Assembly (NCBI GenBank): GCA_046563655.1
Contig: CM102284.1
Coordinates: 930,001-994,000 of the forward strand
DNA: 64,000 nt
Reading direction: 5' to 3'
Source: Yuukianura sp. NJ FZ-2021
Lineage: Eukaryota
Position 1 is the stretch's first letter. Every line of letters begins with the position of its first letter. The notes beneath the pieces were generated by a model. That model searched no databases, was not told the origin of the DNA, and worked only from the letters and a program-made list of their open reading frames with translations. The translations under genes were made by a program, and so were the position numbers. This document shows positions 11,202 through 64,000 of this stretch, piece after piece.

Positions 11202-11950
11202 TAATACAGGCCCAATGAAAAATGGAAATTTAAATGCACTTTCAGCACTTTTCAAGAAAACAAAACCAAAACATAAATGACATTTTAACATAAAATAAAA
11301 TATTTGGAATAGTGCTAGCAATACTTGTAATTCTGAAACAACACTTTTTTCTTAAAACACCTTTTTCTCGGCACTTTTTCTGAAACTACACGTTAAATAT
11401 AATAATTATAATTAACAATTAATTAATAAATAATAAAAACAATCAAATATAATAAGCTCCAAAATATTCCTCACAGTGGCAATCCTTTTGATACTAGAAC
11501 TACACTCTTTCATCGGAAGAATAAATTTTAATCTGTGAACTTTAAACTTTGCCAGAAAACATCTTCTTTTTCCACTCAATTTATTCTATTCTATAACTTA
11601 TTCTACTAATTTTATGAGACAAAAGTTTGTGCCAATCGTGTTTTAGTGCCTTTTCAAAATTAGTTGCATGCATCACGAGCGTCCGACTTCAAAACTTATG
11701 CAAACATCTTATGTGAAATGTTTTTTCTTTGTAAAACAGAAAATATTTTCATATGCCTTCCATGATTACGACAATTTTTTTAATGAATCTAAAAATGTAT
11801 AATTAATAAAAAGAATTCACGAACATATCTCCATACTTATCATTCTTGGCAGTCCTTACTCTGCTCGTAACCGAAGAACGCGTTCGCCTGCTAAACTCCG
11901 TAGTCAAGTTGAGTACATCAAAAAACTAAACAGCCCAAATATTCTACAGG

Positions 11951-14371
11951 ATGGATTTCAAAATACTGCTCATTTTAGCTCTCATTACACTTGGTTGCCT
12001 AACAACCGAGTCAACAGTGTTTCAAAATTTAAATTTCTACATAAGTAAGTACAGGGACTGCGGAGTTGTACTCTTGTTGAACTCAACCAACCAATGGGGA
12101 ACCAGCATTCAACCAATCAACGATCCCCTTTACATCAAGACAAGGTACGACAGACACACATTACCCAACTGGCGGAAATCTTTAAAAACGAAACTACCGT
12201 TTTGCCGCGTATTTTTCTTTTTGCTTGAATACATTACTCCTCAAAATTTTGAAACTTCTTTGAAGTTGTTGGAATACATAAACGTAGGTTCATCAAATCA
12301 AAGTGTGACGTTTATTGGGTTCACGATGCACAAACAAGAATCTTTTCAAAATTCATCTTTGAACATTCAAAAGAACAAAGGAACGCCAGATTCCTGTGTA
12401 TTGGTGATAGATTTCTCTGAAGGCCAAGCTCAAATATTGGATGCTAATACTAGCGTCACATACAGGTCAAAGGTCAAGGCCTTTTTAATTGGAAACGCAC
12501 CGCGCAAAAACAAACTTTTCAAAATTCCACTCGTTTGCCGCCTAATTTCTCCTGAAAAATGCTTTATCCGCCAAAAATTGAAATTGCACATCAGGCTTCA
12601 TCGAAACCGTGGCGGTTATTCTTCTTTTTTGATTCGGTCGAAGAATGCTTTTCCGTGTACCTCCGCTGACCAAAATTTGTTTAACATCACAGATTCCATT
12701 GCGCACAAATTTTATGGCCCACTATCCAACGTTCCTATGGCAACCAAAGCCCTATTTGGGAAGAGACGCCCTGGAAAATTTGGCACAATGTTATCATTTT
12801 TCGTGTTTATGGAAATGTTATCAGTCTCAGTTGGTTGCATGCAAGTGCATCCACTTCCATACGTTGAAATGAGCCAAAAAGATTTTTTTGAACATTTGGC
12901 AAAAACCGCTTTTGGTGACGACGATATTAATAGAAAATTTGAAATGAAATTCCCTTCTCAATATGTAAATCCTTTGTTCGATATAGTTCGAACCACGGAG
13001 GTCATTATTGTTGACATGTCAGAAATGGTATTTTCCACTTGCGATGGTATGTCAAAGTCATTTGGATTTGGAATTTACCTCACACCAATGGACAGCATGA
13101 GCTGGATATTCCTAGTTGCCATGACAACCGTCATCATCCCACTTGCTTTCACAGGAACAGCCATGTTCCGGAAATTACGCGGGAAAATAATAGTGAAACT
13201 ATTTTTGAATTCCTTTGTTTCATCGCTCTCCGCCGTTCTTGAAGTTTCTGCTGGCCTCACCGACAAATTTGTGGAAACCTTAAGTCTCGTTTTCTACTAT
13301 CGCTTGGTATTTGGTTCATTTGCTCTTGTGTTGGTGGTAATTGTGAATGGTTACAAAAGCTTCTTTACTGCCAGTATTTTGGCCCCACCGACAGCTACCC
13401 ACCAGTGGGACCTCGTCAATCAGCTCGAAGGATTTTTTATAATTGCTCGGAATTCGTACTTGGCGCTGCTCCTGGGGCGAGGAATGATTGTTCCTTCTTG
13501 TTGTTTTCTTGCAGAATGTAAATGCGAATCTATGGGTTATTTTCGCGGTGTTCGCAAAAGTCGACCAATGTCAGAAGAATGCAAACTGTGCGAAAAATAT
13601 CAAGAACATTTTGCTCATGTGCAACCATATGATGATCCGGTGGTTTCAGCAAATAACTGTGGAAAGGATGCAATTTCATCGAGATGGGATAACTATTTTC
13701 GGTGTATTTCTTTACCTTTAACAGAAATCCTTTCACATTCGCCTTTACAAAAACCAAAATATGTTGTTAAAAACACAGGGCAATTTTTTTCTTCTGCAGT
13801 TCTTGATTTTAACAAAAGTGTTATAACTAATCTTTTGGAAAAATGTGATCGCACAGTTTTGATCGACTATGACTACGCAGTGAAGCACTTTATAGCTGAA
13901 CTACTTTATAAAAAATTGGAAGCCGGTAATATCGAACAAGGCCTACAAGAATTTCCGATTTCAAAACAAAAACTCGTAGGAATGTGGGATCGAGTTATTT
14001 TTGAGCCGAAGTATAGGAGGGGTAGAGCTTACGTTAAAGGAGATTGGGGATTTGAGCACGACAAAATGATACTGAGGATGCACCAACTCATTGAGCATGG
14101 AATTTTTGAAATCTGGCGCAGAAATGATCAGGAGGAAGGAGCAGAGAATTTAGAAAAACACGAACAGGCAATAGCAAGGTACCGAAGTTTGCCGCAAAAA
14201 TTAACTTTGAATTTAAACATGGCGACGGCCATAATTCTATGGGTTGTGTGCGCACTACCATCAGCAATTATTTTTCTCATAGAATATTGCAAAGATGATA
14301 TTGCTATTAAGTTGATAACTACAGCTAAAAAAATTAGCATTAGTTTTTCGTCCATGAAAACGGAATCCTAA
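11951..14371 (+). CDS. Divergent IR-like membrane protein, copy 4 (intronless, 806 aa)
   Basis: Intact ORF with the same signal peptide, TM block and C-terminal motifs. Confidence 0.75.
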   Translation: MDFKILLILALITLGCLTTESTVFQNLNFYISKYRDCGVVLLLNSTNQWGTSIQPINDPLYIKTRYDRHTLPNWRKSLKTKLPFCRVFFFLLEYITPQNFETSLKLLEYINVGSSNQSVTFIGFTMHKQESFQNSSLNIQKNKGTPDSCVLVIDFSEGQAQILDANTSVTYRSKVKAFLIGNAPRKNKLFKIPLVCRLISPEKCFIRQKLKLHIRLHRNRGGYSSFLIRSKNAFPCTSADQNLFNITDSIAHKFYGPLSNVPMATKALFGKRRPGKFGTMLSFFVFMEMLSVSVGCMQVHPLPYVEMSQKDFFEHLAKTAFGDDDINRKFEMKFPSQYVNPLFDIVRTTEVIIVDMSEMVFSTCDGMSKSFGFGIYLTPMDSMSWIFLVAMTTVIIPLAFTGTAMFRKLRGKIIVKLFLNSFVSSLSAVLEVSAGLTDKFVETLSLVFYYRLVFGSFALVLVVIVNGYKSFFTASILAPPTATHQWDLVNQLEGFFIIARNSYLALLLGRGMIVPSCCFLAECKCESMGYFRGVRKSRPMSEECKLCEKYQEHFAHVQPYDDPVVSANNCGKDAISSRWDNYFRCISLPLTEILSHSPLQKPKYVVKNTGQFFSSAVLDFNKSVITNLLEKCDRTVLIDYDYAVKHFIAELLYKKLEAGNIEQGLQEFPISKQKLVGMWDRVIFEPKYRRGRAYVKGDWGFEHDKMILRMHQLIEHGIFEIWRRNDQEEGAENLEKHEQAIARYRSLPQKLTLNLNMATAIILWVVCALPSAIIFLIEYCKDDIAIKLITTAKKISISFSSMKTES

Positions 14372-14617
14372 ATTCAATTTCACACTAATGAATAAAAAAT
14401 AACCGAAGCACGAATCACATTTTATCGCTTCAAATCAAACATTCTGCACCAATTCTTGAAAGTGTAAAACTACTTTTTCTTCAGAAAAATATACTTCAAT
14501 TTAAGAACTTCGCAATCTACAAAAAAAAAAACAACTTCTTTTGCCATTAGATTTTGAGGCCTGAAGAAAAAATGTATTGCATTCACGGGTCACAAACAAG
14601 AATCATTTCATAGAATG

Positions 14618-14900
14618 TCATAGAATATTTGAAAAATGTTGTTAGTAAGTTGATAACTAAAGTTGAAAAAATTAGCAGTAGACAAGGCCCAATGAAAACG
14701 AAATTAAAAATGCACTTTCGACGCTTTTCAAGTAGCAAAAGAAAACATTTTAGCACTTGAATTAAAATACGCTACACATGAGCTATCCTTGTGATGAAAA
14801 AACTACACTTTTTTTTCGGAAAAAGTACATTTCAATCCGTGAACTTTAAAATTTGTGAGATAGCATCTTCTTTTGCCACTCAATTTAATTAGTTATAACG
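14618..14900 (+). pseudogene. 3' remnant of a deleted IR-like copy (last codons plus 3' flank)
   Basis: tcatagaatatttgaaaaatgttgttagtaagt matches the end of copy 3 (~11146 onward) and is followed by the homologous downstream flank. Confidence 0.7.
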
Positions 14901-15117
14901 TATTCTGCTAATTTTTTAGACAAAAATTTGTGCCTATCGTGTTTTAGTGCTGGTTCATGACTTGTTCCTTTAGTTGCATGCATCACGAGCGTTCGACCTC
15001 AAAACTTATGCAAACATCTTATTTGAAATGTTTTTTTTTTGTAAAAACAGAAACTATTTTCATATGCTTTCCGTGATTACGACAATTTTTTTTTAAGAAA
15101 TCGAAAAATGTATATCT

Positions 15118-15903
15118 AACTAGGATCTTCGGTGGCCTGCGGCCACCGAAAGATCCTAGTCTGTTGCGTACGTACCAGTTTGACGGACTATTTGTACAAA
15201 AAAACGATATCCCAATCGATAAATTAACAAAAAGATCGACCAAAAACAAAATTGGGTACAATTAGTTAGTATTTAGCTCACTTCAACCCGTGTGTTGTAT
15301 AAAAGGAGCAACTTGTCATGCGCACAGACGGTGGATGCGCAGCATGCACCCATCATGCAAATCTGAGGAGTGCGAAGGGTCCGGCCTTTAGCCAGACCCT
15401 GCTGAGGAAGAGGACACGAACACACACAGAGGGTTGAGGATAACTCCCCCTTATGTAGAAGATTGGTTATCATTATCAAACTACAAACGGTACTTCTTTT
15501 TCCGTTAACATGCTTTGGCGGTACAAATATGAATTAAAATAAAATCTGTTAAAAAAAGAGAACAACGACATAGTACAAAGTGTACTTCAACCGTCTTTCA
15601 GATGAAAAGTTCTTTTCCGAGGAATAGTCATCCACAAACTTCCCGGTCAGAAAGACGTTATGTCACCCTGATTGTACCCCGAATTGTACATGTGGTTGGT
15701 TTGCCTAACCTAACACTAAATCGATTAAAGTAGGAGCTAAGTTAGGTAACTCAACAAATTATGGAATGTATTTGATTGTTCAGTTGACATACAGTGTGGT
15801 TTAGTAAGAAGTATTAGTTGAAGGGAACAATGACACAGTACAGTGTGTACGTCAGCCTTCTCTAATGCTTTTGGGCCTATGGCCAGACTGACAAACATCT
15901 TGT
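15118..15903. mobile_element. Helentron-associated (HINE/DINE-1-like) non-autonomous insertion upstream of IR-like copy 5
   Basis: Absent from the homologous upstream region of copy 4 (~11800). Starts with a near-perfect hairpin actaggatcttcggtggcc-tgc-ggccaccgaaagatcctagt and ends with a short stem-loop (ggcctatggcc). Family call is tentative. Confidence 0.5.
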
Positions 15904-16032
15904 AATATGTATATGATATGAAGAACTCACGAACATATCTACATATCTCAAACTTATTATTTTTGGCAGTCCTTGCTCTGCTCGCCACCGAAGAACGCCT
16001 TGGCATGCTAATCTCCGTAGTTAAGTCGAGTA

Positions 16033-16936
16033 CGTATTTTCCCTAATAGTACACCATACCTAAATAGTACACCAGGTCCCTAATAGTACACCAGGTCCAG
16101 GGCCCGAAAAATTAATTAGTACACCGTCCCAAATAGTACACCAGGTCTCTAATAGTACACCGGGTCTTTGGTAATACACCCAAGGAGTATGCCCAGTGTT
16201 GCTGTATGCTTAAACATCCAGTGGCTTAATCCATCCGGATATCCAATAGACTAAATGGGGTTGTAGTGGACGGTAAATGCAACAAATTAAAAATTCAGCG
16301 GAGTTCAAATAAATTTAAGTTAACTATTATAAAATAATTTATTTGCATTTTAAACCGTCTCTTGATATGCGCACCCATTGACGAAATATCGAAAAAGTGG
16401 ATTTCCAGCAACTCTGAGTATACGCCTACTGGAAAAGTTTGGCTATATTTAATTAAATTTTACAGTGTTGGTGGATGGATAAAATACTTCTTCCACTTCC
16501 CTCGAAAGTAGTGATATATCCGGATTTTCTTGGTTTCTTCCGGACGAAACTCAATTTCGTCCATCTGAAACTGGATTTCATCCGGATTTATCCATTTATC
16601 CAGTGGATATATCTTGGACGAAATGCTCAAAAAGTGGATATCCACCAACACAGTGATTAAATACAACAGAAATAACATTAATGTTCTTTCTATCTTGTTC
16701 CTACACAACCAATTCTACAAAATACACATCATTTACAGGCTTCTTTAAAATTTTTACAAGCAAAATTCGAATATTTCTTGCGTAATTTCAATGAGAGGTT
16801 AGTAAAAAATAATAAGCTTTTTGGAAAAAAGAATTATTACACCGTCCCTAATAGTACACCAGGTCTCTAATAGTACACCACCCCCAGAAGTCGAAAACAA
16901 AATTAGTACACCAGGTGTATTATTTGGGAAAATACG
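16033..16936. mobile_element. Tc1/mariner-superfamily (pogo/Tc2-like) MITE with nested hAT MITEs
   Basis: TIRs cgtattttccctaatagtacacc / ggtgtattatttgggaaaatacgg, TA target duplication (empty site gagTAcat in copy 4), internal aatagtacacc repeats. Ends ~42 bp upstream of the copy 5 ATG. Confidence 0.8.
16194..16653. mobile_element. Two adjacent hAT-type MITEs of the cagtgttg family (~16194-16416 and ~16463-16653)
   Basis: Termini cagtgttgctg...tccagcaactctg and cagtgttggtggat...atccaccaacacag with many ggatatcc motifs. Same family as 55873-56279 and 60240-60633. Confidence 0.6.
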
Positions 16937-16978
16937 GTACATAAAAAACACTAATAAACAGTCCAAATATTCTGCAAG

Positions 16979-19450
16979 ATGGATTTCAAAATTCTGCCCA
17001 TTTTAGCTCACATGACACTAGGTTGCTTAGCAACCGAGCCAACAGTGTTTCAAAATTTAAATTTCTACATAAGCAAGTACAGGGAATGCGGAGTTGTACT
17101 CTTGTTGAACTCAACCAACCAATGGGAAACCAGCATTCAACCAATCAACGATCCTCTTTACATCAAGACAAGATACGACATAAACACACTACCCAACTGG
17201 CGGAAATTTGTAAAAACGAAACTACCGTTTTGCCGCGTATTTCTCTTTTTACTTGAATACATTACTCCTCAAAATTTTGAAACCTCTTTGAAGTTGTTGG
17301 AACACATAAACGTAGGTTCATCAAATCAAAGTGTGGCGTTTATTGGCTTCACGATGAACAAACAAGAATCTTTTCAAAATTCATCTTTGAACATTCAAAA
17401 GAAGAGAGGAACGCCTGATTCCTGCTTATTGGTGATAGATTTCACCGAAGGCCAATGTCAAATATTGGATGCTAATACTAGCGTCAAACACAGGTCAAAG
17501 GTCAACGCCTTTTTAATCGGAAACGCACCACGCAAAAACAAACTTTTCAAAATTCCACTCGTTTGCCGCCTAATTTTTCCTGAAAACTGCTTTACCCGCC
17601 AAAAATTGAAATTGCACATCAGGCTTCATCGAAACCGTGGCGGTTATTCTTCTTTTTTTATTCGGTCGAAGAATGCTTTTCCGTGTACCTCCGCTGACCA
17701 AAATTTGTTTAACATCACAGATTCCATTGGGCACAAATTTTATGGCCCACTATCCAACGTTCCTATGGCAACCAAAGCCCTATTTGGAAAGAGACGTCCT
17801 GGCAAATTTGGCACAATGTTATCATTTTTCGTGTTTATGGAAATGTTGTCAGGCTCAGTTAGTTTCGTTCAAGTCCATCCGGATCCATACGTTGAAATAA
17901 GCCAAAAAGATTATTTTGAACATGTGGCAAAAATGTCCGTTCGTGGCAAGAATATTTTTACAGATTTTGAAATGGAATTCCCTTCTACGAAATCCGTAAA
18001 TCCTTTGTACGAAAGCGATCTAACCACGGAGGTCATTATTGTTGACGTGTCAGAAATGGTATTCTCCACTTGCGACGGTGTGTCAAGGTCACTTGGATTT
18101 GAAATTTACTTTACACCAATGGACACCATGAGCTGGATGTTCCTAGTCGCCATGACAACCGTCATCATCCCACTTGCTTTCACAGGAATGGTCGTATTCC
18201 AGAAATTAGGCGGGAAAATAATAGTGAAACTATTTCTAAATTCCTTCGTCTCATCAATGTGTGCCGTTCTTGAAATTTCTGCTGGTCTCACTGACAAACT
18301 TGTGGAAACCTTGAACCTCTTGCCCTACTATCGCTTGATATTTGGTTCATTTGTTCTTGTGTTGGTCGTAATTGTGAATGGATACAAAAGCTTTTTCACT
18401 GCCCTTATTTTGGCCCCACCGAGAGCTACCCACCGGTGGGACCTCGTCAATCAGCTCGAAGGATTTCTTATAATTAATCAGAATTCGTACTTGATACTTG
18501 TCATCCAGCAAGAAATGATTGCTCCTTCATATTGTTACCCTGTAGCATGTAAATGCGAATCTATGGGTTATTTTCGCGGTGGCGGAAAGTTTCATATAGT
18601 GCTCAACAAAACTCGACCAATGTCAGAAGATTGCAAATTGTGCGAAAAATATCAAGAATATTTTGTTCATGTGCAACCTTATGATGATTCGGCGGTATCA
18701 CCAAATGACTGTGGAAATGATGCAGTTTCATCGAGATGGAATAACAATGTTCGGTATTTTTTCTTACCTTTAACAGAAATTCCTTCACATTCGCCTTTAC
18801 AAAAATCAAAATATGTTGTTAAAAACACAGGGCAATTTTTTTCTTTTGCAGTTCTTGATTTTAACACAAGTGTAGTAACTAATCTTTTGGAAAAGTGTGA
18901 TCGCACAGTTTTGATCGACTATGACTACGCAGTGAAGCACTATATAACTGAACTACTTTATAAAAAATTGGAAGCCGGAAATATCAAACAAGGCCTACAA
19001 GAATTTCCGATTTCAAAACAAAAACTTCTAAGAATGTGGGATCGAGTTATTTTTGAGCCGGGGTATCAACGGGGTGCAGCTTACGTTAAAGCAGGTTGGG
19101 GACCTGAGCACGACAAAATGATACCAAGGATGCACCAACTCATTGAACATGGAATTTTTGAAATCTGGCGCAGAAATGATCACGAGGAAGGAGCACAGAA
19201 TTTAAAAAAACACGAACAGGCGATAGCAAGGTACCGAAGTTTGCCGCAAAAATTAACTTTGAATTTAAACCTAGTGACGGCCATGATTCTATGGGTTGTA
19301 TGCGCACTACCGTCTGCAATTACTTTTCTCATAGAATATTGGAAAGATGATGTTATAAAGTTTATAACTACAGCTAAAAAATTAGGATTAGAATTCGTCC
19401 ATGAAAAACGGAATCTTAAATTCAATTTCACACTAATGAATAAAAAATAA
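16979..19450 (+). CDS. Divergent IR-like membrane protein, copy 5 (intronless, 823 aa)
   Basis: Intact ORF, closest to copy 4 in the N-terminal and S2-like regions. Confidence 0.75.
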   Translation: MDFKILPILAHMTLGCLATEPTVFQNLNFYISKYRECGVVLLLNSTNQWETSIQPINDPLYIKTRYDINTLPNWRKFVKTKLPFCRVFLFLLEYITPQNFETSLKLLEHINVGSSNQSVAFIGFTMNKQESFQNSSLNIQKKRGTPDSCLLVIDFTEGQCQILDANTSVKHRSKVNAFLIGNAPRKNKLFKIPLVCRLIFPENCFTRQKLKLHIRLHRNRGGYSSFFIRSKNAFPCTSADQNLFNITDSIGHKFYGPLSNVPMATKALFGKRRPGKFGTMLSFFVFMEMLSGSVSFVQVHPDPYVEISQKDYFEHVAKMSVRGKNIFTDFEMEFPSTKSVNPLYESDLTTEVIIVDVSEMVFSTCDGVSRSLGFEIYFTPMDTMSWMFLVAMTTVIIPLAFTGMVVFQKLGGKIIVKLFLNSFVSSMCAVLEISAGLTDKLVETLNLLPYYRLIFGSFVLVLVVIVNGYKSFFTALILAPPRATHRWDLVNQLEGFLIINQNSYLILVIQQEMIAPSYCYPVACKCESMGYFRGGGKFHIVLNKTRPMSEDCKLCEKYQEYFVHVQPYDDSAVSPNDCGNDAVSSRWNNNVRYFFLPLTEIPSHSPLQKSKYVVKNTGQFFSFAVLDFNTSVVTNLLEKCDRTVLIDYDYAVKHYITELLYKKLEAGNIKQGLQEFPISKQKLLRMWDRVIFEPGYQRGAAYVKAGWGPEHDKMIPRMHQLIEHGIFEIWRRNDHEEGAQNLKKHEQAIARYRSLPQKLTLNLNLVTAMILWVVCALPSAITFLIEYWKDDVIKFITTAKKLGLEFVHEKRNLKFNFTLMNKK

Positions 19451-20593: not shown

Positions 20594-22903
20594 TCATGCA
20601 ACTGACGACGACTTCTTTTGACTCATGACGCGAAGACAAAACTTTTTCTCAACTCCACCTTCGAGTGTGTTGGGCACAATAACGTATTTTCCCGGTTTCA
20701 GCGTAAATCCAAGCGTGTAGCTCTTCATTGCCGTCGGAGGAGCTTGCGTATGTCCCACCGGAAACACTTCCTTATGACTCCGGAAGTAGTCTGCGTCGTA
20801 GTTCCTTGCATCATTCGCCTAAAACCACAAATTTCATATAAAATGTTACAAGTTTAATAAAATATAATATAAAATAATACAGAATATCATGAGTTTCGAC
20901 AACTTCACCTCAAACAACCGAATGCAAAAACACTCCCCGTCGTCCAAGTCCAAAAGCAGTTTTTGCTGAACAGTCACCGACACAATGAGGACACAAAGTC
21001 CTCCAGCGTCGGAATCAAGTTCCACTGGATAGTACGGACTTTGGTCCGGATGTTCTAAAAAAAAAACAAATTTTGTTAACTTTTTTTTTTTTTTAAACTT
21101 TTTCAAAAAGTAGTTTCAAGGTCACTGACCCCATCCCCCTGCAGTTCGTTTCTCATTACTCCACTCATCATAGTACTGCCTAAACCTCAACTGTGAACTC
21201 GGCTGACTGATCAATTCATGGTCAAAGTAAGTCGCCGAAGAGAGGTCACAGAAGTGATGCAAAAAGTCATCAAAAGACATCCAGAATTCACCGTCCTCTT
21301 TTTCAATCATGTCAAGCGACCGCTTCTGTCGGACACTCACGCACTTCCAAAGTGAAGAACTGTCACACCACGACCCCGTCCACTCCGTATTGCCCCAAGG
21401 ATTGCGCAGACGCAGCAACTTTACTGGCTTGTCATGCCCACTCTCGTCTTTCATCGTCACTGTCTTGGCTCCGGTGATGGAATAAGCATGGTTTGATACA
21501 ATACCGTTCTGAAATAAGTTGATAAAATATAAATATACCATATTTATCGGCGTATAACGCGCACAGGCGTATAACATGCACTGAGATATCATTTGAAGAA
21601 GTCTCTAAAATAAGGCTAATTTTGCCCATTTCTGTAGTTTGGAACTGTGGAAACGGCAGATAACGCGCGCATTATACGCCGATAAATAGGGTAATTGATA
21701 AAATTGAATTAATTAATAATTAAAATAGTATATTTAATTATATTAAATGTGTAATTTACTCCGGGTGTCCTGGAAGTAGCTCCGTTGACACTGTCTTTGC
21801 CAAGCCAGGCGACAATGTCTTGAAAAAGATGCGTGGGAACTCCATTGTCGAACATGACGCATTCACCAAATCCTCCAGTAAGTGCCTCCAGAGCGTACAT
21901 TGGAACGTTGGAGGCAATGTTGCAGTAATTTCCATTGAGTCTAAACAAAAATATGTAATAATATATAAATTATTTTATGTTATTATAAAAAAAAACTTAC
22001 TTGGCAAAAGCTTTCTCCACCAGCATTGGCCAGAACTCAGCTTTGCCATCGTTGATGAAAAAGTTGCAGCCAAGGATGTTGTACTTCTCACCGACGACGA
22101 AAACCGGAATAAAGTCGTCCACAACCAAGTCAACCCAGACACCTTGGTACCAAAACCTGAAATCAAAATTATGAAAAAAACTTAGAATAAAATTTTGAAA
22201 AAGTTTTGAATTTTTAGAAATTTGGACTTCTAAGTACCGGAAATGATACACTCCAGAGTCGTTGGTCGTGTTGTCCTTGGGAATGACCATTTTAATAAGT
22301 GATTTGACCATGCTCACTGCTGACAACGAGCATAAAAACCAACAGTCGCCAGTCAACCCCTGTTGAATGTCCATCCGACCAAGAACTTTTCCAACGTCGC
22401 CACATTTGAAACACGGTGTATATTTTCCTTTGTGCATCTTCTTACAGAGCTCCTAGATACAAAAAAAAAAACAACAAACAAAAAACTTGAGTTTTAACCC
22501 AAATTTTTATCAGTTTTTTTTTTGAAAATCGTTTGCCGTGATTCGAATCCAACTCGTGCGTCCATTCCACCCTTCGTTCCTCCATCCCTGGACCATATCG
22601 GCCACGTCCGGATTGGCAGTATCCAGCAGTTGGTCGATGCTGCCAATACTTTCTTCGGAGTGCGGGAACTCTGGATCTTGGTAAATGGCGCCATCGTACT
22701 GTCGGAGTAGATCTGGATACGACTGGGTCTGCCGGTAGATACTGCGCAGGTCCGTCAGCTTCTCCAGTTCTGGGTCTCCATACTGTTTAGAAAAATTACA
22801 AAAACGAAACAAAAATTTTGTTCAAAATGTTATTTGTAATGAAAGAAATATTATTTTTAAATCTTACATAGTAGACGTTGTTTCCGTGAATTGAGTAGGC
22901 CAT
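20594..22903 (-). CDS. Atypical calpain (CysPc catalytic domain plus calpain III/C2L domain, no penta-EF-hand), about 8 exons
   Basis: Catalytic triad motifs QQGLTGDCWFL, NHAYSITG and LRNPWG; also WVDLVVDDFIP, EFWPMLVEKAFAK, DGEFWMSFDDF; domain III end LKPGKYVIVPNT..FCLRV then stop at 20596-20594. ATG at 22903 opens a 36-bp exon. Confidence 0.88.
21538..21691. mobile_element. 154-bp pogo/Tc2-like MITE in a calpain intron
   Basis: TIRs ccatatttatcggcgtataa / ttatacgccgataaataggg, flanked by TA on both sides. Confidence 0.8.
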
Positions 22904-23769
22904 TTCTTTTATTTATGTGGAAATTTTGTAGGTCAAAGGTCAAATCAAAAATTTAACTAACGTTAGGCTGTGCGGACGACTCAAGCTGAAGTGATTACCC
23001 AGTGCAGGAAACCAAAGGGAATTCAAAAAACTGGGAACGTGGAGGTGTAATTTACACCGCAATTGCTAATTAAGATTAACTCATTAAGTAGTCGCCGATT
23101 TCCGTTTCAATTTTCATGGCCTCCAGACATCAAGACATTTACCTGTGAGAATGGTCTTAACACCGAAAAAAATTGAAAAACAATTTTGAAAATTATCGTT
23201 ACTACATTAGTTTGAAACCTTTTGATTTCCCTAGAAAGTTAAGAAATCGTCACAAATATGAAATATGAAGATTTTGTACAGAACAGAAATTTTTTATTAA
23301 AATTTGATTCAAAATAGAATTAGACAACTTAGCATAAACTATAAAAACTGTATCATATTCTGTTCTTATTAAAATATAGATATTTAGTGTTTATTTTTTT
23401 TTTCACAACAACATTATGATGAAATATTTAGCTTGTCAATCCTATGTATATTTTTAAAATTTTGTAAAGAATAATTTAGTAATCGTAAAGTTAAACTATG
23501 GAAAAGGATACCTACAGAGCATAATATCACAATAACGTACAGTAGTTAACTCAAGGGGTCATGTCAATGCAAGCGATATTGTGTTAAAATATAAGCCGGA
23601 GAAATTATAGCGAACGGACCTATAAATTTTTTAGCTGTGTAGTACATTTTTCTATTGATTTAGCGCTGTTTTCTATAGGGCTGATTCACTCATGGTTTTA
23701 CAAAAAATGAAAACACTTAAGACATCGGGGAGACATAGCGCCAATTGCGCTTACTCTGGTTAGGCTTCC

Positions 23770-23955
23770 CGAGCATGGTATGAAAGATACAAAAGCAGTA
23801 ACACCAAGGTTTCACATGGAACACGTATATAGTTAGTGCTAGGTTTGCTTGCTATCACCTTCTATGCACCGAGATATTTTTGGAAAGAATTTGAACAGGG
23901 GAAAATGAGGATGCTGACGGGAAAACTCCGTCCAATAGTTCTGGGAACATCATAG
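23770..23955 (+). pseudogene. Innexin fragment (TM2 and following loop), decayed
   Basis: Manual translation LVLGLLAITFYAPRYFWKEFEQGKMRML matches the innexin motif FYxPRxxWKxxEGGK. Frameshift just upstream, stop just downstream, YYQW not recognisable. Confidence 0.65.
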
Positions 23956-24064
23956 TGATCCTATGTCACGTAATTATATGTAAGGTGTAAGGTGAGGTGT
24001 CACGTAATGATTTGGGGTTATTTTTCCTAATCTAACCTAATTCAACCGTTCTATTTCTCATCAT

Positions 24065-24425
24065 ACTGTTGAACGTATTGTGTCTACGTTAAATGATGAA
24101 AATACACTGGCAAACAAGAAACCTCCTGGACGACCGAGAACTGCAACTGGACTTCAAAATCGTATAGCCCTTGTGCAGATATGCGAGAATTCGGTGTGGA
24201 ACCAACAACCACTAACCACGTCCGAAACTGGTGCTCAGTTGCCTGGTCCATGTTCACAAGATTCGGTCAACAGAATTATGAAACTGGAAAAGATTAAATC
24301 TTATCGGATTCAATCGCACCAAAAACTTAAACACACGGATCATTTTCCTAGAGCAACGTTTTGTGAGGGCATGATGTAACGCCAACACAACGACCCGGCT
24401 TTGTTCCGACATATTTGTTTGAGCA
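24065..24425 (+). pseudogene. Tc1/mariner-superfamily transposase fragment (HTH and linker region)
   Basis: GRPRTA...SVNRIMK...SYRIQSHQKLKHTDHFPRATFCEGMM*RQHNDPALFRHICLS follows the pattern preceding the first catalytic Asp. In-frame stop, truncated. Confidence 0.7.
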
Positions 24426-24558
24426 CATACAATACAGCAATGTGTTGTATGAGTAGAGTAACAGCTAATAAGATCTTTGAACCTTTGGTAGTCACAAAAA
24501 TCCGTCCTACGCCTCAGCTGAACGCATAATTACGGTTTTCATGAGCAGGTAGTCATAG

Positions 24559-24728
24559 ACAGCACCGCCGACGTCAAGCGAAGACTTCCAGCAACAAATT
24601 GACCCTAGTATGATTTTTAAATTCCCATAGGAAGTTGAAAAGTAAATATTAAAATCTATAGAAACGAACCACCACAGCACCGCCGACGTCAAGCGAAGAT
24701 CTCTACCAACAAATTTGATCAGATAGTA
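24559..24728 (+). repeat. Direct duplication of a ~50-bp unit (acagcaccgccgacgtcaagcgaaga...)
   Basis: Identical 26-bp core at ~24559 and ~24674 followed by similar tails. Confidence 0.8.
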
Positions 24729-25267
24729 CAACACCTAATGAGTTGAGAAAAAGATCTGATGACAAAATTGGATTCGTGGAAACAGGCACTCAGACACAAG
24801 AGAGGAGCAGAACAAACGCAGAGTTGGAAAGATGGTTGCGAGAACAGTAGCCGCCGTAACTTTGGCTCGAGTTGGTTGCTGGAGCTGTATCAATTGTAAA
24901 TAACCAAGCAAATCTAAACAATTTGGCTTCTACGCCGCCAAGTTCAACTGTGTTGTCATAGAAGGAAAAAGTGTAACCAAGAGGCATTGTTGAAATAGGA
25001 GAAATAAAGGGTGCCACTTCTGCCTTCACTACCCCTTTCATTTACACATTAAAAAAAAATGAGAAAAAGAATGGACTCATGGAGTTGGAATAAGTACATT
25101 TACACCAAATACATTACCGTTGGGGTATTGGACAAGGTTTTTGAATTTACCCATAATTGAGATTACGGATTTGCTAAGCTATTCAATAAAGTAATTGTCA
25201 ATTTCATAATATATTAATAACCATAATTACCTAAGTGTTAGATCCACCCTCGGACTCTGCACAAAGG

Positions 25268-25420
25268 GAAATCGAGTACACAGTCTATCTTCAAAGCCCA
25301 GGTGAAATTGTTTTCACTTTGCCTGGTTGCATGTACATGGTATTCAACATGGAGTATACTTGTAAGTTTGATCTAACTTATATTGAATTGATGGATGTTT
25401 AGCGAAGCGTTCCACTCCGG
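25268..25420 (+). pseudogene. JmjC-domain (KDM4/KDM5-like) C-terminal fragment
   Basis: EIEYTVYLQSPGEIVFTLPGCMYMVFNMEYT resembles QxPGEFVxTFPxxYHxGFN. It is followed by a short gtaagt..tttag intron-like stretch and EAFH. The metal-binding His is replaced. Confidence 0.5.
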
Positions 25421-25816
25421 AGACTCCGTCTTACTTCTCTGCAAAAGGTAATTGCCCGCAAAGTTCTCTCGCTTATGGATTTGAAGTTTCATAATAGCCC
25501 TCAGACTTAAATATTAGTTAACCTCTAAAATGCTACGTAAGCATTTCCCGTTGCAAGGTATGCAAGATTGTAAGATTCATTTACCAAGCTTGGAACCCAA
25601 AGGCACCAACTATTAGGCATGAAGCCAAAACTGATCATAAGAAGTTCTTCTACATTGTTGGCGGTCTAACCTATAACTTTTCAAGTCGAAGTGGTTCTTA
25701 AATACTCTGGCATTCAAACCACACCTATATAGACCTCAACTATATTCAGTAAAAAAAATTAGAGGTCTATGTGAATCTAGTTGTATTCCGTAGTATCAGC
25801 CCATGAACGCTGACAC

Positions 25817-26158
25817 ACATTGGCGACCGTGACAGAAGAACCTACAATCTTTCAGAAAGATGGATTTATATAATGTTTATTCGCTGAGGCGTACAAAAAA
25901 GTTACATTACATTTGCCATACCTAGTTTCTTGCATCGATGAAGAAGGAAATCTTGTCATTTAATACTCGACATTGGCGACCGTGACAGAAGAACCTACAA
26001 TTCACCAAAGCAAAGGATGTCCGAAGCAATGTACCTTTTATCTTTTCCGCAATGACTAAAACAGAAAACACTGACAATTAAATATATGATTATGATGATA
26101 GCGACATGAATATCACATAATCGTAAACATTGGCGACCGTGACAGAAGAACCTACAAT
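25817..26158 (+). repeat. Array A: three identical 32-bp repeats separated by unrelated 121- and 125-bp spacers; repeat is tRNA-Arg PBS-like
   Basis: acattggcgaccgtgacagaagaacctacaat at 25817, 25970 and 26127. Confidence 0.9.
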
Positions 26159-26231
26159 TCATCAAAGACAGTGTCTTCGAGAACAAAGTGCGATATAGAA
26201 TGGTGAGAATACTTTTACACTCTCTTCAATA

Positions 26232-27192
26232 CCCTCACAAATGGAGCCTCAGTCGGGAACTCATCTGCTGACCACGCTAACAAGTGCTACAATCTTTCGC
26301 TGATGCTTTTAATATCTTACTACTACGGAATGGGAGCGGCCGTGAATGTGTTATCCACAAAGGGGGAACAAGATACTTGGTATGAACGCGGAAATCTCAA
26401 GGATCTGGTAAAGAATTACTACAAAACTGTGTGTGATGCATGTTCAACTATTTAACCCCCTCAAATGGAGCCTCAGACGGGAATTCAACTGCTGATCTGC
26501 GATTATCAAACAACATTCGCTTTTCAATACATTAGGATGGAGTACTTAGGAACTAAGTGTAGGACGCGTTGGAATGTTTTAAAATTCGTAACAAGTCGAA
26601 ACAAGCTCTGTTATACTATACATGTTATATTACTTAAACCTCTCAAATGGAGCCTCAGACGGGAATTGAACTGTTGATCTTCGATTATAAAATGACCATC
26701 TTCTCTCGCATGCGTAGCTCACGTCGGAACGTTTCAGAATTCGAAGCAGTCAAAGCAATCTCTGTTACGACTGTTTATAACTTAACCCTCTCAAATGGAG
26801 CCTCAGACGGGAATTCAACTGTTGATCCTCGCTTATAAAATGACATTCTTTTTTCACTACATCAATACAAGTACCAGCGAAGCAAGTCGAGGCAAACTCC
26901 GTTATACTATACACTGTTTACTACTTAACCCTCTCAAATGGAGCATCAGACGGGAATTCAACTGCTGATCAAACTCTAAAATTACTTGATTTACAACTAT
27001 AACTTAATGGCTCGCAGAATTCACAAGCTTGCTGTATTAACTCTCAAAACATTGCGTTAGTTTTCTTCAACTGAAACCGACAATTGTTTGTCGAATACAC
27101 TACAAATCACTATGGAGTTTGGTAGGTACAGTAAAGCAAAGTACTGTAGGTAGGTAAACCTCCACAAATGGGCGCTCAGCCGGGAAATAAAC
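26232..27192 (+). repeat. Array B: six ~40-bp repeats (consensus ccctctcaaatggagcctcagacgggaattcaactgctgatc), tRNA-3'-end-complementary, period 143-230 bp
   Basis: The TGG of each copy is at 26242, 26466, 26648, 26796, 26939 and 27169. Outer copies are more diverged; inner spacers are distantly related to each other. Confidence 0.88.
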
Positions 27193-27645
27193 ATGATAGT
27201 AGCGATTCAATACAAGTCTTTACGTGGAATCCAAATCTTTGAGTGTATTACAATGAATGAGAAATATTTGCCAACTGCGAAACTCCTAGAATAAGTAAAA
27301 CGCTCTGTAAAGGCTTGTTTTACTCGTGTAACTAGTTAGTTAAAACCATTAGGAGAATTAGGGCGAGTTGCCCATAAGACTGCGACCGTTGTCTCCTTGC
27401 AACGAAAAAAAACATTGACGTGTCAAGGTGGGACTTCTTTTTTACAGGGTTCCGAAAAACCTATTAAAAGTTTTGAACCTATTCCAATTGAACAAATAGC
27501 CGACATTCATTTCAGAAAATTCCGCAGAGACTCGAATGGGAGCAGAATAATTAATCTATCGCCGAAGCTGATGGATCGGTTTTAAAAGGCTCGGCCAGAA
27601 GCATAAAAATCGAAAAAGTTGCCACATCAGGTGCATGGTCTGTGA

Positions 27646-27700
27646 CCAGTGATTGGTCTTGCCAGTGATTGGCTTGGGCAGCCAGAAATGGGCTATATAA
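27646..27700 (+). promoter_or_regulatory. Pol II promoter-like module: two inverted CCAAT boxes plus TATA box
   Basis: ccagtgattgg at 27646 and 27662; tatataa at 27694. Confidence 0.4.
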
Positions 27701-27844
27701 CCAGTGCTTTGGTGCACATTGTCTCGGTTAGGTCGGTAGGCCCATCAGGCAACGTTTCATCCCGAAATGATAGGAAATTTTTTCAACCATACCCAGTAAC
27801 ACCATGATGTCGGCAATAGTTAGTTCTCTTCAAGATTGAGGATA

Positions 27845-28740
27845 ACTTTTGATTTCGTGATTTCGCGTTGGGTGATTACAGCATCAACTATCATCATCTG
27901 GGAAGTTCGAGATACTGGAGAATCATTCTACCATCATGTGTATAAGAATGTATTAACGCAACACTTTTTGATTTTAAGACTTCGCGTTGGTTCATTACAG
28001 CATCAACTATCATCATCTGGGAAGTTCGAGATACTGGAGAATAATGCTAGAATCATGTGTATAAGAATGTATTAACTTGCTTCAGTTACCCGCAACACTT
28101 TTTGATTTTAAGACTTCACGTTGGTTCATTACAGCATCAACTATCATCATCTGGGAAGTTCGAGATACTGTTGAATAATTCTACCATCATGTGTATAAGA
28201 ATGTATTAACGCAACACTTTTTGATTTTAAGACTTCGCGTTGGTTCATTACAGCATCAACTATCATCATCTGGGAAGTTCGAGATACTGGAGAATAATGC
28301 TAGAATCATGTGTATAAGAATGTATTAACTTGCTTCAGTTACCCGCAACACTTTTTGATTTTAAGACTTCGCGTTGGTTCATTACAGCATCAACTATCAT
28401 CATCTGGGAAGTTCGAGATACTGGAGAATTATTCTACCATCATGTGTACAAGAATGCATTAACGCAACACTTTTTGATTTTAAGACTTCGCGTTGGTTCA
28501 TTACAGCATCAACTATCATCATCTGGGAAGTTCGAGATACTGGAGAATAATGCTAGAATCATGTGTATAAGAATGTATTAACTTGCTTCAGTTACCCGCA
28601 ACACTTTTTGATTTTAAGACTTCGCGTTGGTTCATTACAGCATCAACTATCATCATCTGGGAAGTTCGAGATACTGGAGAATTATTCTACCATCATTTGT
28701 ATAAGGATATACTAACTTACTTCATTTACCCGGCAAGACT
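27845..28740. repeat. Tandem repeat of about 7 monomers alternating 134 and 119 bp (253-bp higher-order dimer)
   Basis: gcaacacttttt anchors at 27958, 28092, 28211, 28345, 28464 and 28598. A 15-bp segment (ttgcttcagttaccc) and diagnostic substitutions alternate between monomers. Confidence 0.92.
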
Positions 28741-29282
28741 TTATCTGATCAGCATTAATAGATCTGTTCTCTCAAGGTTGAACAAAATAAGCAGAAATAG
28801 AATAGTTGTAGGTTAGGTCGCAATAAAATAGTCGGCGTAATCGCCAACTGGTGTTTCTGCCGGATATCCCGCCCCACGCTCCCTCCCATACCGATTCGAA
28901 ATAATTTATCCTTAGTGCTATAATGGTGGGCTTTAAAGTTCCGCATTTAGAACCGAAAAGGTCAAATCAAGCACTAAAGCACTAACCTTACCCCTCGAGT
29001 TAAACTTGTACCTTATAACTTATAACAAGTATTTTTCTATAACTTAAAACAACTTAACCTACAGTATTAGATTTGTAAATATATAAATATTGACAATACA
29101 AAGAATAGCAACCTGTCGTTTGTAAACTGCTTGTTATCATAAATCATCATTTTGACATTGCAAGATCATGACGATGGAGTCTTCGAAGATGACAAACTGC
29201 ATCTTGTCTTCCGCATCAACTCAACAACGGTGACTGGAGTTCACCATGAAGTCACCCTCGCCGGAGTAAAAGTTCAGTTACC

Positions 29283-30363
29283 TTACGTTGCTGACTGCTT
29301 GTAGTTTTTGGTTTGAACCATCTTCACTCCACACATCGCACAGATACCTGAAAATGAAAGTTACAGCATAAAAACATTGAACACTGAAAAAATTTAAAAA
29401 CGATTAAAAGGCACAGATACTACTCAAGGTTACATTGTCGTTCTCGTTTCTGAGGCAGTAAAACTTTTCTCAAAGTTTTTTTTTTTGATACAAATGTTCG
29501 GGTGCCCACTTCGCTTTTGGGTTGATTTAAACCAATTGATTGAAACAGAGGTTTAAATCAAGTGGTTGTTAAAAATAAAAAGCGTAAATTCCTAAGACAA
29601 TTTGAATTTAAAGTGCACAAGCGAAAAGAAATTGAAAAACCCTAGAGCTTTTTGAAAAAAATTGTCAAAGTTAATGGTGTTTACTGTTTTGTTTTACTTC
29701 ATACGGCTATTTTGATGCTTGCTTAGGTTGCATGACTTTTTTGTGCGTATTTGACAATTTCAAATTGAAATTTTAACTAAATTTTGGTCTAAACAAAAAA
29801 AAAGCAACTAAATACACGTTTATGTCTTGTTTAAACGAAAAACCAATCAACCCTGGTAAAATGGCTGGGTACGTACAATGACACCAGCTCTCAAAAATTT
29901 GAACGGTTGGAAAACGTGTAGCCGCCCAAGTTTACTTCAACCAAAATTTTACCTAGCAATCTAAAATACAACGTAATTACCTTTACTGTAGGCACAAGGT
30001 TGGCAGTAGTGAGATCCAGCCTGATGTACTTTTTGTTTACAAATTCTGCAGGAATCGAACTTGGTCTGATAAGGGCTGAATCTGGCCTTCTTCGAAGACA
30101 GCAGTTTGTTCTCACCAACCTGCAAATTAAACAACGTTAGTTAGTTAGACGATGAGTTTATGCACACTAACTTTTAGAAAAAGAAAACAAAACTTCAGAA
30201 ATAAATCGACATACTACTTATTCAGAAATGAAATCAAAAATTCAACTGTTTGTAATTTACATACCTTCCGCCCTCCTCCTTCCGTCGTATTTCTCGCTCC
30301 AGTTTTCCATGGATCTGGGGTTATGACCTTCCCCAACTTCTTTTCGCATTTATCACAAACCAT
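29283..30363 (-). CDS. CRIPT: Cysteine-rich PDZ-binding protein, 100 aa, 3 coding exons (30363-30265, 30119-29981, 29347-29283)
   Basis: Manual splice gives MVCDKCEKKLGKVITPDPWKTGARNTTEGGGRK/VGENKLLSSKKARFSPYQTKFDSCRICKQKVHQAGSHYCQPCAYSK/GICAMCGVKMVQTKNYKQSAT*, with GT-AG introns in correct phase. Missed by the ORF track. Confidence 0.96.
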
Positions 30364-47469: not shown

Positions 47470-48313
47470 TTTTGTTTCAAACAAGTAAAAATACGAGTTT
47501 TCAGTAAAGTTAAATATGGTTATGAATTTTACTTTTTATTTTTTGTATTTTACACCTTTCCGCTACAGGTTCCTCAATCTTACTGAACCTTGCCATTGTA
47601 ACTAATTAGTTAGTGAGTTAATTTGTTATTAGTGAAAGTTGTTGGTTACTTTATGCTTTGCTTAAGTCCGTCTGTCTGTCAATTAGTCCGTTGGTCATTA
47701 TAAATGTGAAACCATTGGGCCGAATTTTCAATCTGTCTTCAGAGTTTAATTTCCAGTAATCTAAGGAATGGCTAATTCATTTACTTTTTGACCAAACATG
47801 TATAACTTCAAAGGCAAAGTATTTTTTTGTAATCGGAGATCGTGTAAAAATGGCATTTGTAAATTTTATTCACTATAAATTTTATAGTGTGCGACTTTTC
47901 CGTTGACGTCACTTCAGCTTCATTTTCCATTTCGCTACTTGCATAAGGCGTTTATAACTGTTTGTTATAATCTCAACCACGGCGATGGAATCAGCAGGAA
48001 CATTTGTCTATGGCCATTAAACTTTACGCCTGACTTTCATATTTAAGTAGCATTTCCGGAGTGAAGTAGGGACAAGTACATAATCTAACTAGTAAGTGTT
48101 TCAAGGAAGTACAGTATCGAAAACATTTATTTTTGAAAACTGTGTCAAGAACACTTCCAAGATGACATAATTTATTTACACCGAGTTAGGTTTTTATATA
48201 AAAACAAATCTTTTTAGTAAATTCAGCTTCGGTTCGATAAATATATTTATCAATATATCGATAAGATTGGGTAAATAAAGACAGTTAAATAATTTAAAAA
48301 ATTTAAAAAAAAT

Positions 48314-63980: not shown

Positions 63981-64000
63981 CCTGTGATCCGAAAACCGTT

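What the first reader, a model, noticed from the sequence alone, without database searches (positions are those of the whole stretch)
25817..26158. Array A repeat matches ~30 nt of tRNA-Arg with a gap at the T-loop, and its spacers look unrelated
Seen: TGGCGACCGTGACAG-AA-GAACCTACAAT, three exact copies, spacers of 121 and 125 bp with no similarity I can see. Recalled (not looked up): the reverse complement of insect tRNA-Arg(UCG)+CCA is TGGCGACCGTGACAG-GAyTC-GAACCTGCAATCTT, and TGGCGACCGTGACAG is the mdg1/412-type gypsy PBS. The match therefore resumes beyond the usual 18-nt PBS and skips the region around m1A58. Inference: either a bipartite site built to pair around the modified base, or a footprint of reverse transcription across m1A58. 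Exact repeats around non-homologous, similar-length spacers suggest selection or iterative spacer acquisition.
Basis: partly seen in the sequence, partly recalled or inferred. Interest (0 to 1): 0.8.

Follow-up and report, generated by a model that had tools for sequence, protein, structure and literature searches.

The report
tRNA-complementary repeats in retroelement-like arrays
Three identical 32-base repeats are copies of the end of a mature arginine tRNA, lacking three bases at a known reverse-transcriptase stumbling point, and most likely come from the primer site of an old retroelement, not a spacer-collecting system.

Summary
ACATTGGCGACCGTGACAGAAGAACCTACAAT occurs three times exactly (25817, 25970, 26127). 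The 121- and 125-nt spacers are no more alike than shuffled sequence.

Five tRNA-Arg(TCG) genes fetched from unnamed metagenome contigs (not the host's) show what the repeat is. It is the reverse complement of tRNA positions 46-73 plus CCA. It has a 3-nt gap at positions 57-59 and two transitions, at positions 50 and 61.

The repeat is not alone. Directly downstream, 5-6 repeats carry the complement of a tRNA-Thr-type 3' end plus CCA. Their cores are 96% alike and their flanks 51-55% alike. Both cores follow CA plus 1-2 nt, as a primer-binding site follows an LTR.

Independent assemblies hold the arrays with unchanged cores and variable spacers. No LTR pair, gag/pol, RNA evidence or host genome was available.

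Best reading (0.4): a low-copy relic of a non-coding LTR retroelement leader. Its tRNA-pairing module arose by read-through of the tRNA primer past m1A58. It was then multiplied in tandem and kept by selection while the spacers drifted.

CRISPR-like spacer acquisition is not supported. A host-level function, such as small RNAs or a tRNA/tRF-binding array, stays open.

The parts
25817..25848 (+). Array A, copy 1: ACA-T, then the complement of tRNA-Arg(TCG) positions 46-76. The match runs 3 nt further (CTT, to 25851).
25849..25969 (+). Spacer 1 (121 nt). It holds a purine run GAAGAAGGAAA (25940-25950), followed by TCT and a TG...CA stretch of 19 nt that ends 1 nt before the TGG of copy 2.
25970..26010 (+). 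Array A, copy 2: the 32-nt core plus TCACCAAAG, which it shares with copy 3.
26011..26126 (+). Remainder of spacer 2. The full spacer is 26002-26126 (125 nt). Two variants exist in public runs, one with 3 differences and one with 11 differences plus a 6-nt insertion.
26127..26167 (+). Array A, copy 3: the 32-nt core plus TCATCAAAG.
26231..27201 (+). Array B: six units, with TGG at 26242, 26466, 26648, 26796, 26939 and 27169. The core CTCAAATGGAGCCTCAGACGGGAATTCAACTGCTGATC is the complement of a tRNA-Thr-type 3' end plus CCA. The end units B1 and B6 are degenerate.
27847..28742 (+). Array C: a young 119/134-bp satellite with a 253-bp higher-order unit. No tRNA-like core was seen in it.
24559..24715 (+). 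A pair of 42-nt repeats (90% alike), 115 nt apart, with unrelated sequence between them. They are not tRNA-like.
24960..24971 (+). Purine run AGAAGGAAAAAG followed directly by TGT. AGAAGGAAA occurs only here and at 25942 in the window.
25726..25732 (+). TATATAG, 89 nt upstream of the first TGG. Read from the sequence only.

Best explanation
Array A is the remnant of a retroelement leader. Its only conserved part is a tRNA-pairing module. The proposed steps are as follows.

1. A mature, CCA-bearing tRNA-Arg(TCG) served as primer of an LTR-type retroelement.
2. When the plus strand copied the primer, the reverse transcriptase did not stop at m1A58. It skipped about three nucleotides and went on to the variable loop.
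3. This fixed a 28-nt complement of the tRNA just behind the CA end of the LTR.
4. The module, with about 120 nt of leader, was multiplied in tandem, like the internal arrays of non-coding LTR retroelements of mosquitoes.
5. The spacers drifted until they were unrecognisable. The module was kept because it pairs with the tRNA, for priming or primer capture.
6. The same happened next door with a tRNA-Thr-type module (array B).
7. What sits in the window now is a low-copy relic without LTR pair or genes.

Shown: the tRNA complementarity with CCA, the position of the gap, the CA-N-TGG context, the core-versus-spacer contrast in both arrays, and the presence of the arrays in independent data. Inferred: the reverse-transcription origin, the retroelement origin, and selection as the cause of the conservation.
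For: - The core equals the complement of tRNA-Arg(TCG) positions 46-76 with CCA. Eukaryotic tRNA genes do not encode CCA (established knowledge), so the source was a mature tRNA or a primer-binding site.
- The gap covers positions 57-59, around the m1A58 stop. RTs are reported to skip nucleotides at m1A.
- Both cores are preceded by CA plus 1-2 nt: ACA-T-TGG in array A and TCA-AA-TGG in array B.
- The 3' motif of array B occurs in real tRNAs. It is carried by 16 of the 49 tRNAs that ARAGORN called in 25 prokaryote loci, and 12 of those 16 are tRNA-Thr.
- In array B the cores of B2-B5 are 218/228 alike. The flanks are 249/489 and 93/168 alike. Units still align at 71% over 399 nt. This shows duplication followed by divergence.
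- Culex has 38 non-coding LTR element families with internal tandem arrays. Their periods include 117, 144, 150, 155 and 164 bp, and PBS-Arg is the commonest primer type. One element carries CCA-bearing tRNA copies at the LTR/PBS border, and a 30-nt LTR/PBS border is conserved between elements that are otherwise unalignable (PMC3286476, sections 13, 14 and 16 read).
- The arrays are real. Contigs of two studies hold them. Contigs break at the exact cores, and a 33-nt core contig has depth 23.5 against 6.9 for its flank, about 3 copies.
Against: - No second LTR copy, inverted repeat or other match of 23000-29500 exists anywhere in the window.
- No gag, pol or integrase domain was found in 18 ORFs scanned around the arrays.
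- Two different primer types side by side are unusual for one element.
- The core is about single-locus in one run, so no active family is visible.
- Array A has perfect cores with random spacers, while array B has less perfect cores with more similar spacers. One common age-plus-selection history does not explain this easily.
- The published m1A skips are of one or two nucleotides, not three.
- The tRNAs compared are not the host's.
Confidence: 0.4

Rival explanations
1. The arrays are a host-level functional locus, whatever their origin. The cores are kept by selection in the host because they act through RNA or as binding sites. Three forms are possible. (1) They give about 29-30-nt small RNAs, as the tapiR satellite of Aedes does. 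(2) They act as a target or sponge for 3' tRNA fragments or tRNA primers. (3) They form an array of sites for a multi-zinc-finger protein that recognises primer-binding sites.
For: - The core-versus-spacer contrast appears in both arrays.
- One spacer-2 variant carries 11 substitutions and a 6-nt insertion, yet is bounded by unchanged cores.
- All three A cores are unchanged in a second organism label whose flanks differ by 2-3%.
- The block starting at the second T (TTGG...CAAT) is 29 nt and begins with T, which is piRNA-like. This was read.
- Precedent: the tapiR monomers diverge strongly while the 29-30-nt piRNA parts are far more conserved (bioRxiv 10.1101/2020.01.15.907428, passages).
- PBS-derived sites are used by 3' tRNA fragments in mouse (bioRxiv 10.64898/2026.01.22.698655, abstract only).
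Against: - The contigs are unitigs that end at repeated 31-mers. Identity of the A cores at contig ends is therefore partly built in.
- With about 3% divergence, only about 3 changes are expected in 96 nt of cores, so zero changes is weak evidence.
- Neither strand of either core folds better than shuffles: z = -1.81 to +1.26 in 6 folds.
Confidence: 0.22
2. The cores are retro-copies of 3' tRNA fragments that have nothing to do with LTR elements. A non-LTR reverse transcriptase switched templates onto the CCA end of a tRNA, or a SINE-like RNA ended in a tRNA 3' part. The arrays then arose by ordinary tandem duplication and decay neutrally.
For: - CCA is present, and both cores end near the variable loop (about positions 44-46). 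This looks like a common copying limit.
- No LTR or retroelement protein lies nearby.
Against: - Neutral decay cannot give three identical 32-mers next to spacers that are at chance similarity. Nor can it give 96% cores next to 51-55% flanks.
- The CA-N-TGG context in both arrays is not predicted.
- No tRNA-like 5' part, A box or full tRNA fold is present: ARAGORN found 0 genes in the window, and Rfam gave no tRNA match at E up to 10 in 23000-29500.
Confidence: 0.12
3. The array grows by iterative acquisition. Unrelated pieces of DNA are inserted between copies of the repeat, as in CRISPR arrays, integron cassettes or islands inserted serially into a tRNA 3' end. The repeat is the duplicated target.
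For: - The repeats are exact, and the spacers are unrelated and of similar length.
- In runs X1 and X5 a contig carries the core between two other flanks that are absent from the window.
Against: - Array B, with the same architecture, has homologous spacers.
- The spacers match nothing else in the window.
- No recombinase, integrase or Cas-like gene is near. The only hits were a weak HTH fragment and a JmjC fragment.
- No eukaryotic system of this kind is known (from my own knowledge).
- There are only three copies.
Confidence: 0.04

Closest known systems
Primer-binding site of mdg1/412-lineage Ty3/gypsy LTR retrotransposons (tRNA-Arg-TCG primer)
   Same: - It is the complement of the tRNA-Arg(TCG) 3' end including CCA, with 15 nt perfect, placed 1 nt behind a CA.
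- The same primer type is listed for mdg1, 412, blood, Tabor and Stalker4.
   Different: - It is present three times.
- The match continues to position 46 with a gap at positions 57-59.
- No LTR pair, polypurine tract with 3' LTR, or gag/pol is present.
Non-coding LTR retrotransposons with internal tandem arrays (cqUNK families of Culex quinquefasciatus; LARD/TRIM-like)
   Same: - No coding capacity.
- Several consecutive complex tandem arrays with periods of 115-230 bp.
- PBS-Arg and PBS-Thr types occur among those families.
   Different: - Those elements have >98% identical LTRs, one sharply defined PBS, a PPT and a target-site duplication.
- The sections read do not report arrays that carry the PBS.
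- Here no LTRs are found, and the PBS-like module itself is the repeated unit.
tRNA copies with CCA at the LTR/PBS border (cqgypsy_1 of Culex)
   Same: Reverse-transcribed mature tRNA sequence far beyond 18 nt sits next to an LTR end.
   Different: There two whole tRNAs lie head to head, once. Here only the 3' third is present, with a T-loop gap, in tandem arrays.
tapiR1/2 satellite locus of culicine mosquitoes
   Same: It is a head-to-tail array whose monomers diverge in length and sequence, while a segment of about 30 nt is far more conserved.
   Different: There about 20 units give abundant Piwi4-bound piRNAs and the locus is conserved over long times. Here there are 3 and 6 units, no expression data, and cores that are tRNA complements.
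CRISPR arrays
   Same: Exact direct repeats separated by unrelated spacers of similar length.
   Different: - The host is a eukaryote.
- The repeat is a tRNA complement.
- There are no cas-like genes.
- The spacers are about 120 nt.
- The neighbouring array shows spacer homology.

Membership tests
LTR-retrotransposon primer-binding site | Complementary to the 3' end of a host tRNA, including CCA | tested here: met
   15 nt are perfect and 26 of 28 aligned letters match tRNA-Arg(TCG) genes from metagenome contigs. The host tRNA itself was not available.
LTR-retrotransposon primer-binding site | Lies 0-5 nt behind a 5' LTR that ends in CA and has a matching 3' LTR | tested here: not met
   CA plus 1 nt is present. 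No second copy of the upstream sequence exists anywhere in the 64-kb window on either strand.
LTR-retrotransposon primer-binding site | Element carries a polypurine tract next to the 3' LTR, and gag/pol or a known autonomous partner | tested here: not met
   Purine runs followed by TGT lie at 24960 and 25940, but without an LTR. None of the 18 ORFs scanned has a retroelement domain.
Non-coding LTR elements with internal tandem arrays (cqUNK-like, LARD/TRIM) | Complex tandem arrays between the LTRs, with no ORFs | tested here: met
   Four consecutive arrays lie in 24559-28742. Their periods fall within the range of Table 2 of PMC3286476.
Non-coding LTR elements with internal tandem arrays (cqUNK-like, LARD/TRIM) | Two near-identical LTRs and a target-site duplication | tested here: not met
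tRNA-derived SINE or tRNA pseudogene array | A tRNA-related 5' part with A and B boxes, recognisable as a tRNA fold | tested here: not met
   ARAGORN found 0 genes in the window. Rfam gave no tRNA match at E up to 10. Only positions 43/46-76 are present, and CCA is included.
Satellite-derived piRNA locus (tapiR-like) | A conserved segment of about 30 nt within diverging monomers | tested here: met
Satellite-derived piRNA locus (tapiR-like) | Abundant PIWI-bound small RNAs from the conserved segment | not testable with these tools
   No RNA holder was listed.
CRISPR-like acquisition array | Spacers acquired one by one from foreign DNA at one end, with dedicated machinery | tested here: inconclusive
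   No machinery genes are nearby, and the spacers match nothing in the window. Order across strains could not be read from the unitigs.

The most novel reading that the evidence does not exclude
A domesticated, host-maintained battery of extended tRNA-3'-end complementary modules: three for tRNA-Arg(TCG) and five to six for a tRNA-Thr-type end. Each module spans the acceptor 3' strand, the T arm and CCA. The battery would work through RNA, in one of two ways. It could be a source of about 29-30-nt small RNAs. Or it could be a multi-site trap for tRNA primers or 3' tRNA fragments that tunes the priming or silencing of LTR retroelements. On this reading the fossil 3-nt skip at m1A58 shows that the first module was made by read-through of a modified tRNA.
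Probability: 0.15. Interest if true: 0.75.

Novelty: new variant of a known kind. Interest (0 to 1): 0.42.

Why it matters
If the reading is right, the locus preserves two things that are rarely seen in genomes.

First, it holds a natural record of a retroelement reverse transcriptase passing the m1A58 stop of its tRNA primer, by skipping about three nucleotides.

Second, it holds primer-binding modules multiplied in tandem and conserved much better than their surroundings, for two different tRNAs side by side. That pattern says the tRNA-pairing sequence itself was the unit under selection.

Whether the selection acted on a mobile element or on the host decides what the locus is. It is either a curiosity of retroelement evolution or a new kind of tRNA-directed regulatory array.

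Tried and rejected
- **Whole genome of the window:** not held. The host tRNA-Arg and tRNA-Thr, the genome-wide copy number and any LTR-bearing relatives could therefore not be examined.
- **Earlier notes of this scan:** nothing by place, sequence or words.
- **Literature by motif:** the 14-mer of the repeat is in no paper of the library. Shorter 11-mers hit only unrelated primers in the 20 papers listed of 34 that hold one. The array B motif hit one unrelated plant-virus paper. A search for phrases on multiple or duplicated primer-binding sites gave only PCR and prime-editing papers among the 25 listed of 111. Supplements are closed, so the element sequences of PMC3286476 (file S1) could not be compared.
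- **Relatives of the 22-mer TGGCGACCGTGACAGAAGAACC:** 0 in viral contigs and 0 in prokaryote genome contigs. Its two GGTTCTTCTGTCACGGTCG hits (L075, L083) lack CCA and look like chance.
- **Array B motif in viral contigs:** Among the 11 tRNAs that ARAGORN called in the loci fetched up to then (L001-L119), none fits array B.
- **Canonical tRNA-end pattern** TGG-N12-G-NN-TYGAAC: only unit B3 fits, and 27 of 100 shuffles also give a match, so it is not significant on its own.
- **RNA folding of the cores on both strands:** not better than shuffles.
- **Sequencing runs:** no RNA holder was listed, so expression is untested.
- **Two loose-end flanks of another core context:** not in the window.
- **JmjC fragment:** no longer relative was found.
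- **Considered and dropped:** concatenated strong-stop DNAs or serial template switching between tRNA and about 120-nt RNAs. Three independent events would not give identical ends, the same ACAT and the same gap.
- **A 9-mer of the core in opposite orientation at 28806:** at chance level.

Full report
**What is there**

The window is arthropod-like DNA.
- Five tandem intronless ORFs of 709-852 aa lie at 1.6-19.4 kb. One of them was searched, and its nearest protein-atlas clusters are arthropod proteins, some of them ionotropic-receptor-like.
- A calpain gene lies on the minus strand at about 20.6-22.9 kb.
- The finding sits in the non-coding stretch that follows this gene.

The reported repeat is real and slightly longer than described. 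ACATTGGCGACCGTGACAGAAGAACCTACAAT (32 nt) stands at 25817, 25970 and 26127 without a single difference. Its 15-nt head occurs nowhere else in the window even with three mismatches allowed. Shuffles give a mean of 0.30 matches.

The two spacers (121 and 125 nt) and the outer flanks are no more alike than shuffled sequence (p = 0.41-0.95). With the alignments anchored at the cores, only the nine letters TCAyCAAAG behind copies 2 and 3 stand out.

**The tRNA match, tested with fetched sequence**

No genome is held for this window and the window has no tRNA gene. I therefore scanned metagenome contigs with a pattern made only of window letters and a gap.
- Among 119 stretches, 21 had the 5-nt gap of a normal T loop, and eight of these looked tRNA-like.
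- ARAGORN, run on those eight, called five tRNA-Arg(TCG) and one tRNA-Arg(CCG), and found nothing in two.
- The five TCG genes differ in their 5' two thirds but are identical from position 46 to 73.

In the alignment the reverse complement of the repeat equals positions 46-49, 51-56, 60 and 62-73, followed by CCA.
- Positions 57-59 (G, A, G) are missing.
- C50 and C61 appear as T.
- Copy 1 continues for three more matching letters.

In the tRNA sense both substitutions are C to T and would keep G-U pairs in the T stem. With only two events I draw nothing from this.

CCA is not encoded by eukaryotic tRNA genes (established knowledge). The sequence therefore goes back to a mature tRNA or to a primer-binding site.

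**The neighbourhood changes the picture**

Array A is the second of four consecutive short arrays on the same strand:
- a pair of 42-nt repeats 115 nt apart (24559, 24674);
- array A;
- array B, with six units and TGG at 26242, 26466, 26648, 26796, 26939 and 27169;
- a young 119/134-bp satellite at 27847-28742.

The core of array B also begins with TGG. A scan of prokaryote genomes for its reverse complement, with two T-loop letters left free, found 25 stretches. ARAGORN called 49 tRNAs in them, and 16 carry the motif at their 3' end: 12 tRNA-Thr, one Gly, one Ser, one Ala and one ambiguous.

Unit B3 equals such tRNA-Thr genes from G53 to the discriminator base and then adds CCA. Weaker likeness runs on to the variable loop. 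These are prokaryotic tRNAs, so they show only that the motif is a genuine tRNA 3' end of the Thr type. They do not show which host tRNA it is.

Both cores follow a CA by one or two letters (ACA-T-TGG in A, TCA-AA-TGG in B). This is the arrangement of an LTR end and its primer-binding site.

In array B the spacers are still recognisably homologous: 71% over 399 nt between units. Yet the 38-nt core of units B2-B5 is 218/228 identical, against 249/489 upstream and 93/168 downstream. Array B is thus a duplicated and diverging array with a protected core. Array A looks like the same thing carried further.

**Independent data**

No RNA run was listed for the stretch. Contigs of four DNA runs were laid, from two studies and two organism labels.
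- They carry the arrays, so the arrays are not an assembly artefact.
- The contigs end at the exact cores, as unitigs do at repeated 31-mers.
- In run X4 a 33-nt core contig has depth 23.5 against 6.9 for the adjoining 1.8-kb contig. That is about three copies, so in that genome the core is essentially confined to this array.
- Spacer 2 exists in two forms, one with 3 differences and one with 11 differences plus a 6-nt insertion. Both are bounded by unchanged cores.
- None of the 40 substitution rows shown (100 more were not shown) falls inside a TGG core of A1-A3 or B1-B5. However, differences near contig ends are not listed, so this is weak evidence.
- One haplotype or paralogue skips 475 nt inside array B.
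- Two runs hold a contig with the core between flanks that are not in the window.

**What it most likely is**

The features listed above are hallmarks of retroelement priming: CCA, the tRNA complement, the CA-N-TGG context and the gap at the m1A58 stop. Passages of PMC7466121 report that reverse transcriptases answer m1A with arrest, misincorporation or skipping of one or two nucleotides. A three-letter loss at positions 57-59 is therefore a plausible scar of read-through, but it is larger than the reported skips.

PMC3286476 (sections 13, 14 and 16 read) describes close relatives in kind from Culex:
- 38 families of non-coding LTR elements filled with complex tandem arrays, with periods such as 117, 144, 150, 155 and 164 bp;
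- PBS-Arg as their commonest primer type, and one family with PBS-Thr;
- an element with CCA-bearing tRNA copies at the LTR/PBS border;
- a 30-nt LTR/PBS border conserved between elements that are otherwise unalignable.

I therefore read arrays A and B as leader arrays of such an element, or of two elements. In them the primer-pairing module itself was multiplied and kept while the rest drifted (confidence 0.4).

Against membership:
- No LTR pair or any other repeat of the flanks exists in the window.
- No retroelement domain was found in 18 ORFs.
- Two primer types lie side by side.
- No multi-copy family is visible.

The locus is derived from such elements at best. It is not a demonstrable member.

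**Rivals**

1. A host-level function is the main alternative (0.22). The tapiR satellite of Aedes shows that monomers can diverge while a 29-30-nt piRNA segment stays fixed. PBS-derived sites are used by 3' tRNA fragments in mouse (abstract only).
2. LTR-independent tRNA retro-copies decaying neutrally (0.12) do not explain the protected cores.
3. Iterative spacer acquisition (0.04) is contradicted by the homologous spacers of array B and by the absence of any machinery or spacer matches.

Whether the gap is a footprint or an adaptation for pairing around m1A58 cannot be settled here. Both predict it. A random 3-nt deletion would include position 58 about one time in ten (my estimate).

**Verdict**

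The tRNA part is supported. This is a new variant of a known kind, of moderate interest. The interest would rise sharply if the cores prove to be expressed or constrained in the host.

Noticed in passing
window 1619-19450 (+): Five tandem intronless ORFs of 709-852 aa, 62-100% alike in blocks. They have no Pfam domain. For the one ORF searched (11930-14371), the nearest atlas clusters are arthropod hypothetical proteins and ionotropic-receptor-like families.
   Followed up: partly
window 44800-64000 (-): Five tandem units of about 3.4-5.7 kb, 69-97% alike, with ORFs of 120-183 aa on the minus strand. One ORF was scanned and has no clear domain.
   Followed up: no
window 25235-25402 (+): A 55-aa frame matches the end of a JmjC domain (E = 2.3e-9) and ends at a GTAAGT. 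It lies in a 392-nt block (24994-25385) that one contig of run X1 skips. It is therefore a gene fragment inside a polymorphic insertion or deletion. No longer relative was found.
   Followed up: partly
window 24041-24379 (+): A 112-aa frame with a weak homeodomain-like HTH match (E = 0.015, below the Pfam cut-off). It may be a transposase N-terminal remnant.
   Followed up: no
window 27636-27676: A 16-nt tandem motif (CCAGTGATTGG...) whose bin has by far the highest summed contig depth in the runs: 1365 in X1 against about 50-70 nearby. It is therefore a high-copy repeat of the genome.
   Followed up: no
window 24559-24600 and 24674-24715: Two 42-nt repeats (90% alike), 115 nt apart, with unrelated sequence between them. 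This is the same architecture as array A, but without tRNA likeness. A contig of run X1 joins this motif directly to 25345.
   Followed up: partly
window 24960-24978 and 25940-25960: The only two AGAAGGAAA in the window. Each lies in a purine run followed within 3 nt by TGT, and each lies upstream of an array A core. This is polypurine-tract-like, but the count alone is not significant: 30 of 100 shuffles give two or more.
   Followed up: partly
window 20600-22900 (-): A multi-exon calpain-family protease gene (Peptidase_C2, E = 8.7e-32 and 3.6e-23). Its start faces the arrays from about 2.9 kb away.
   Followed up: no
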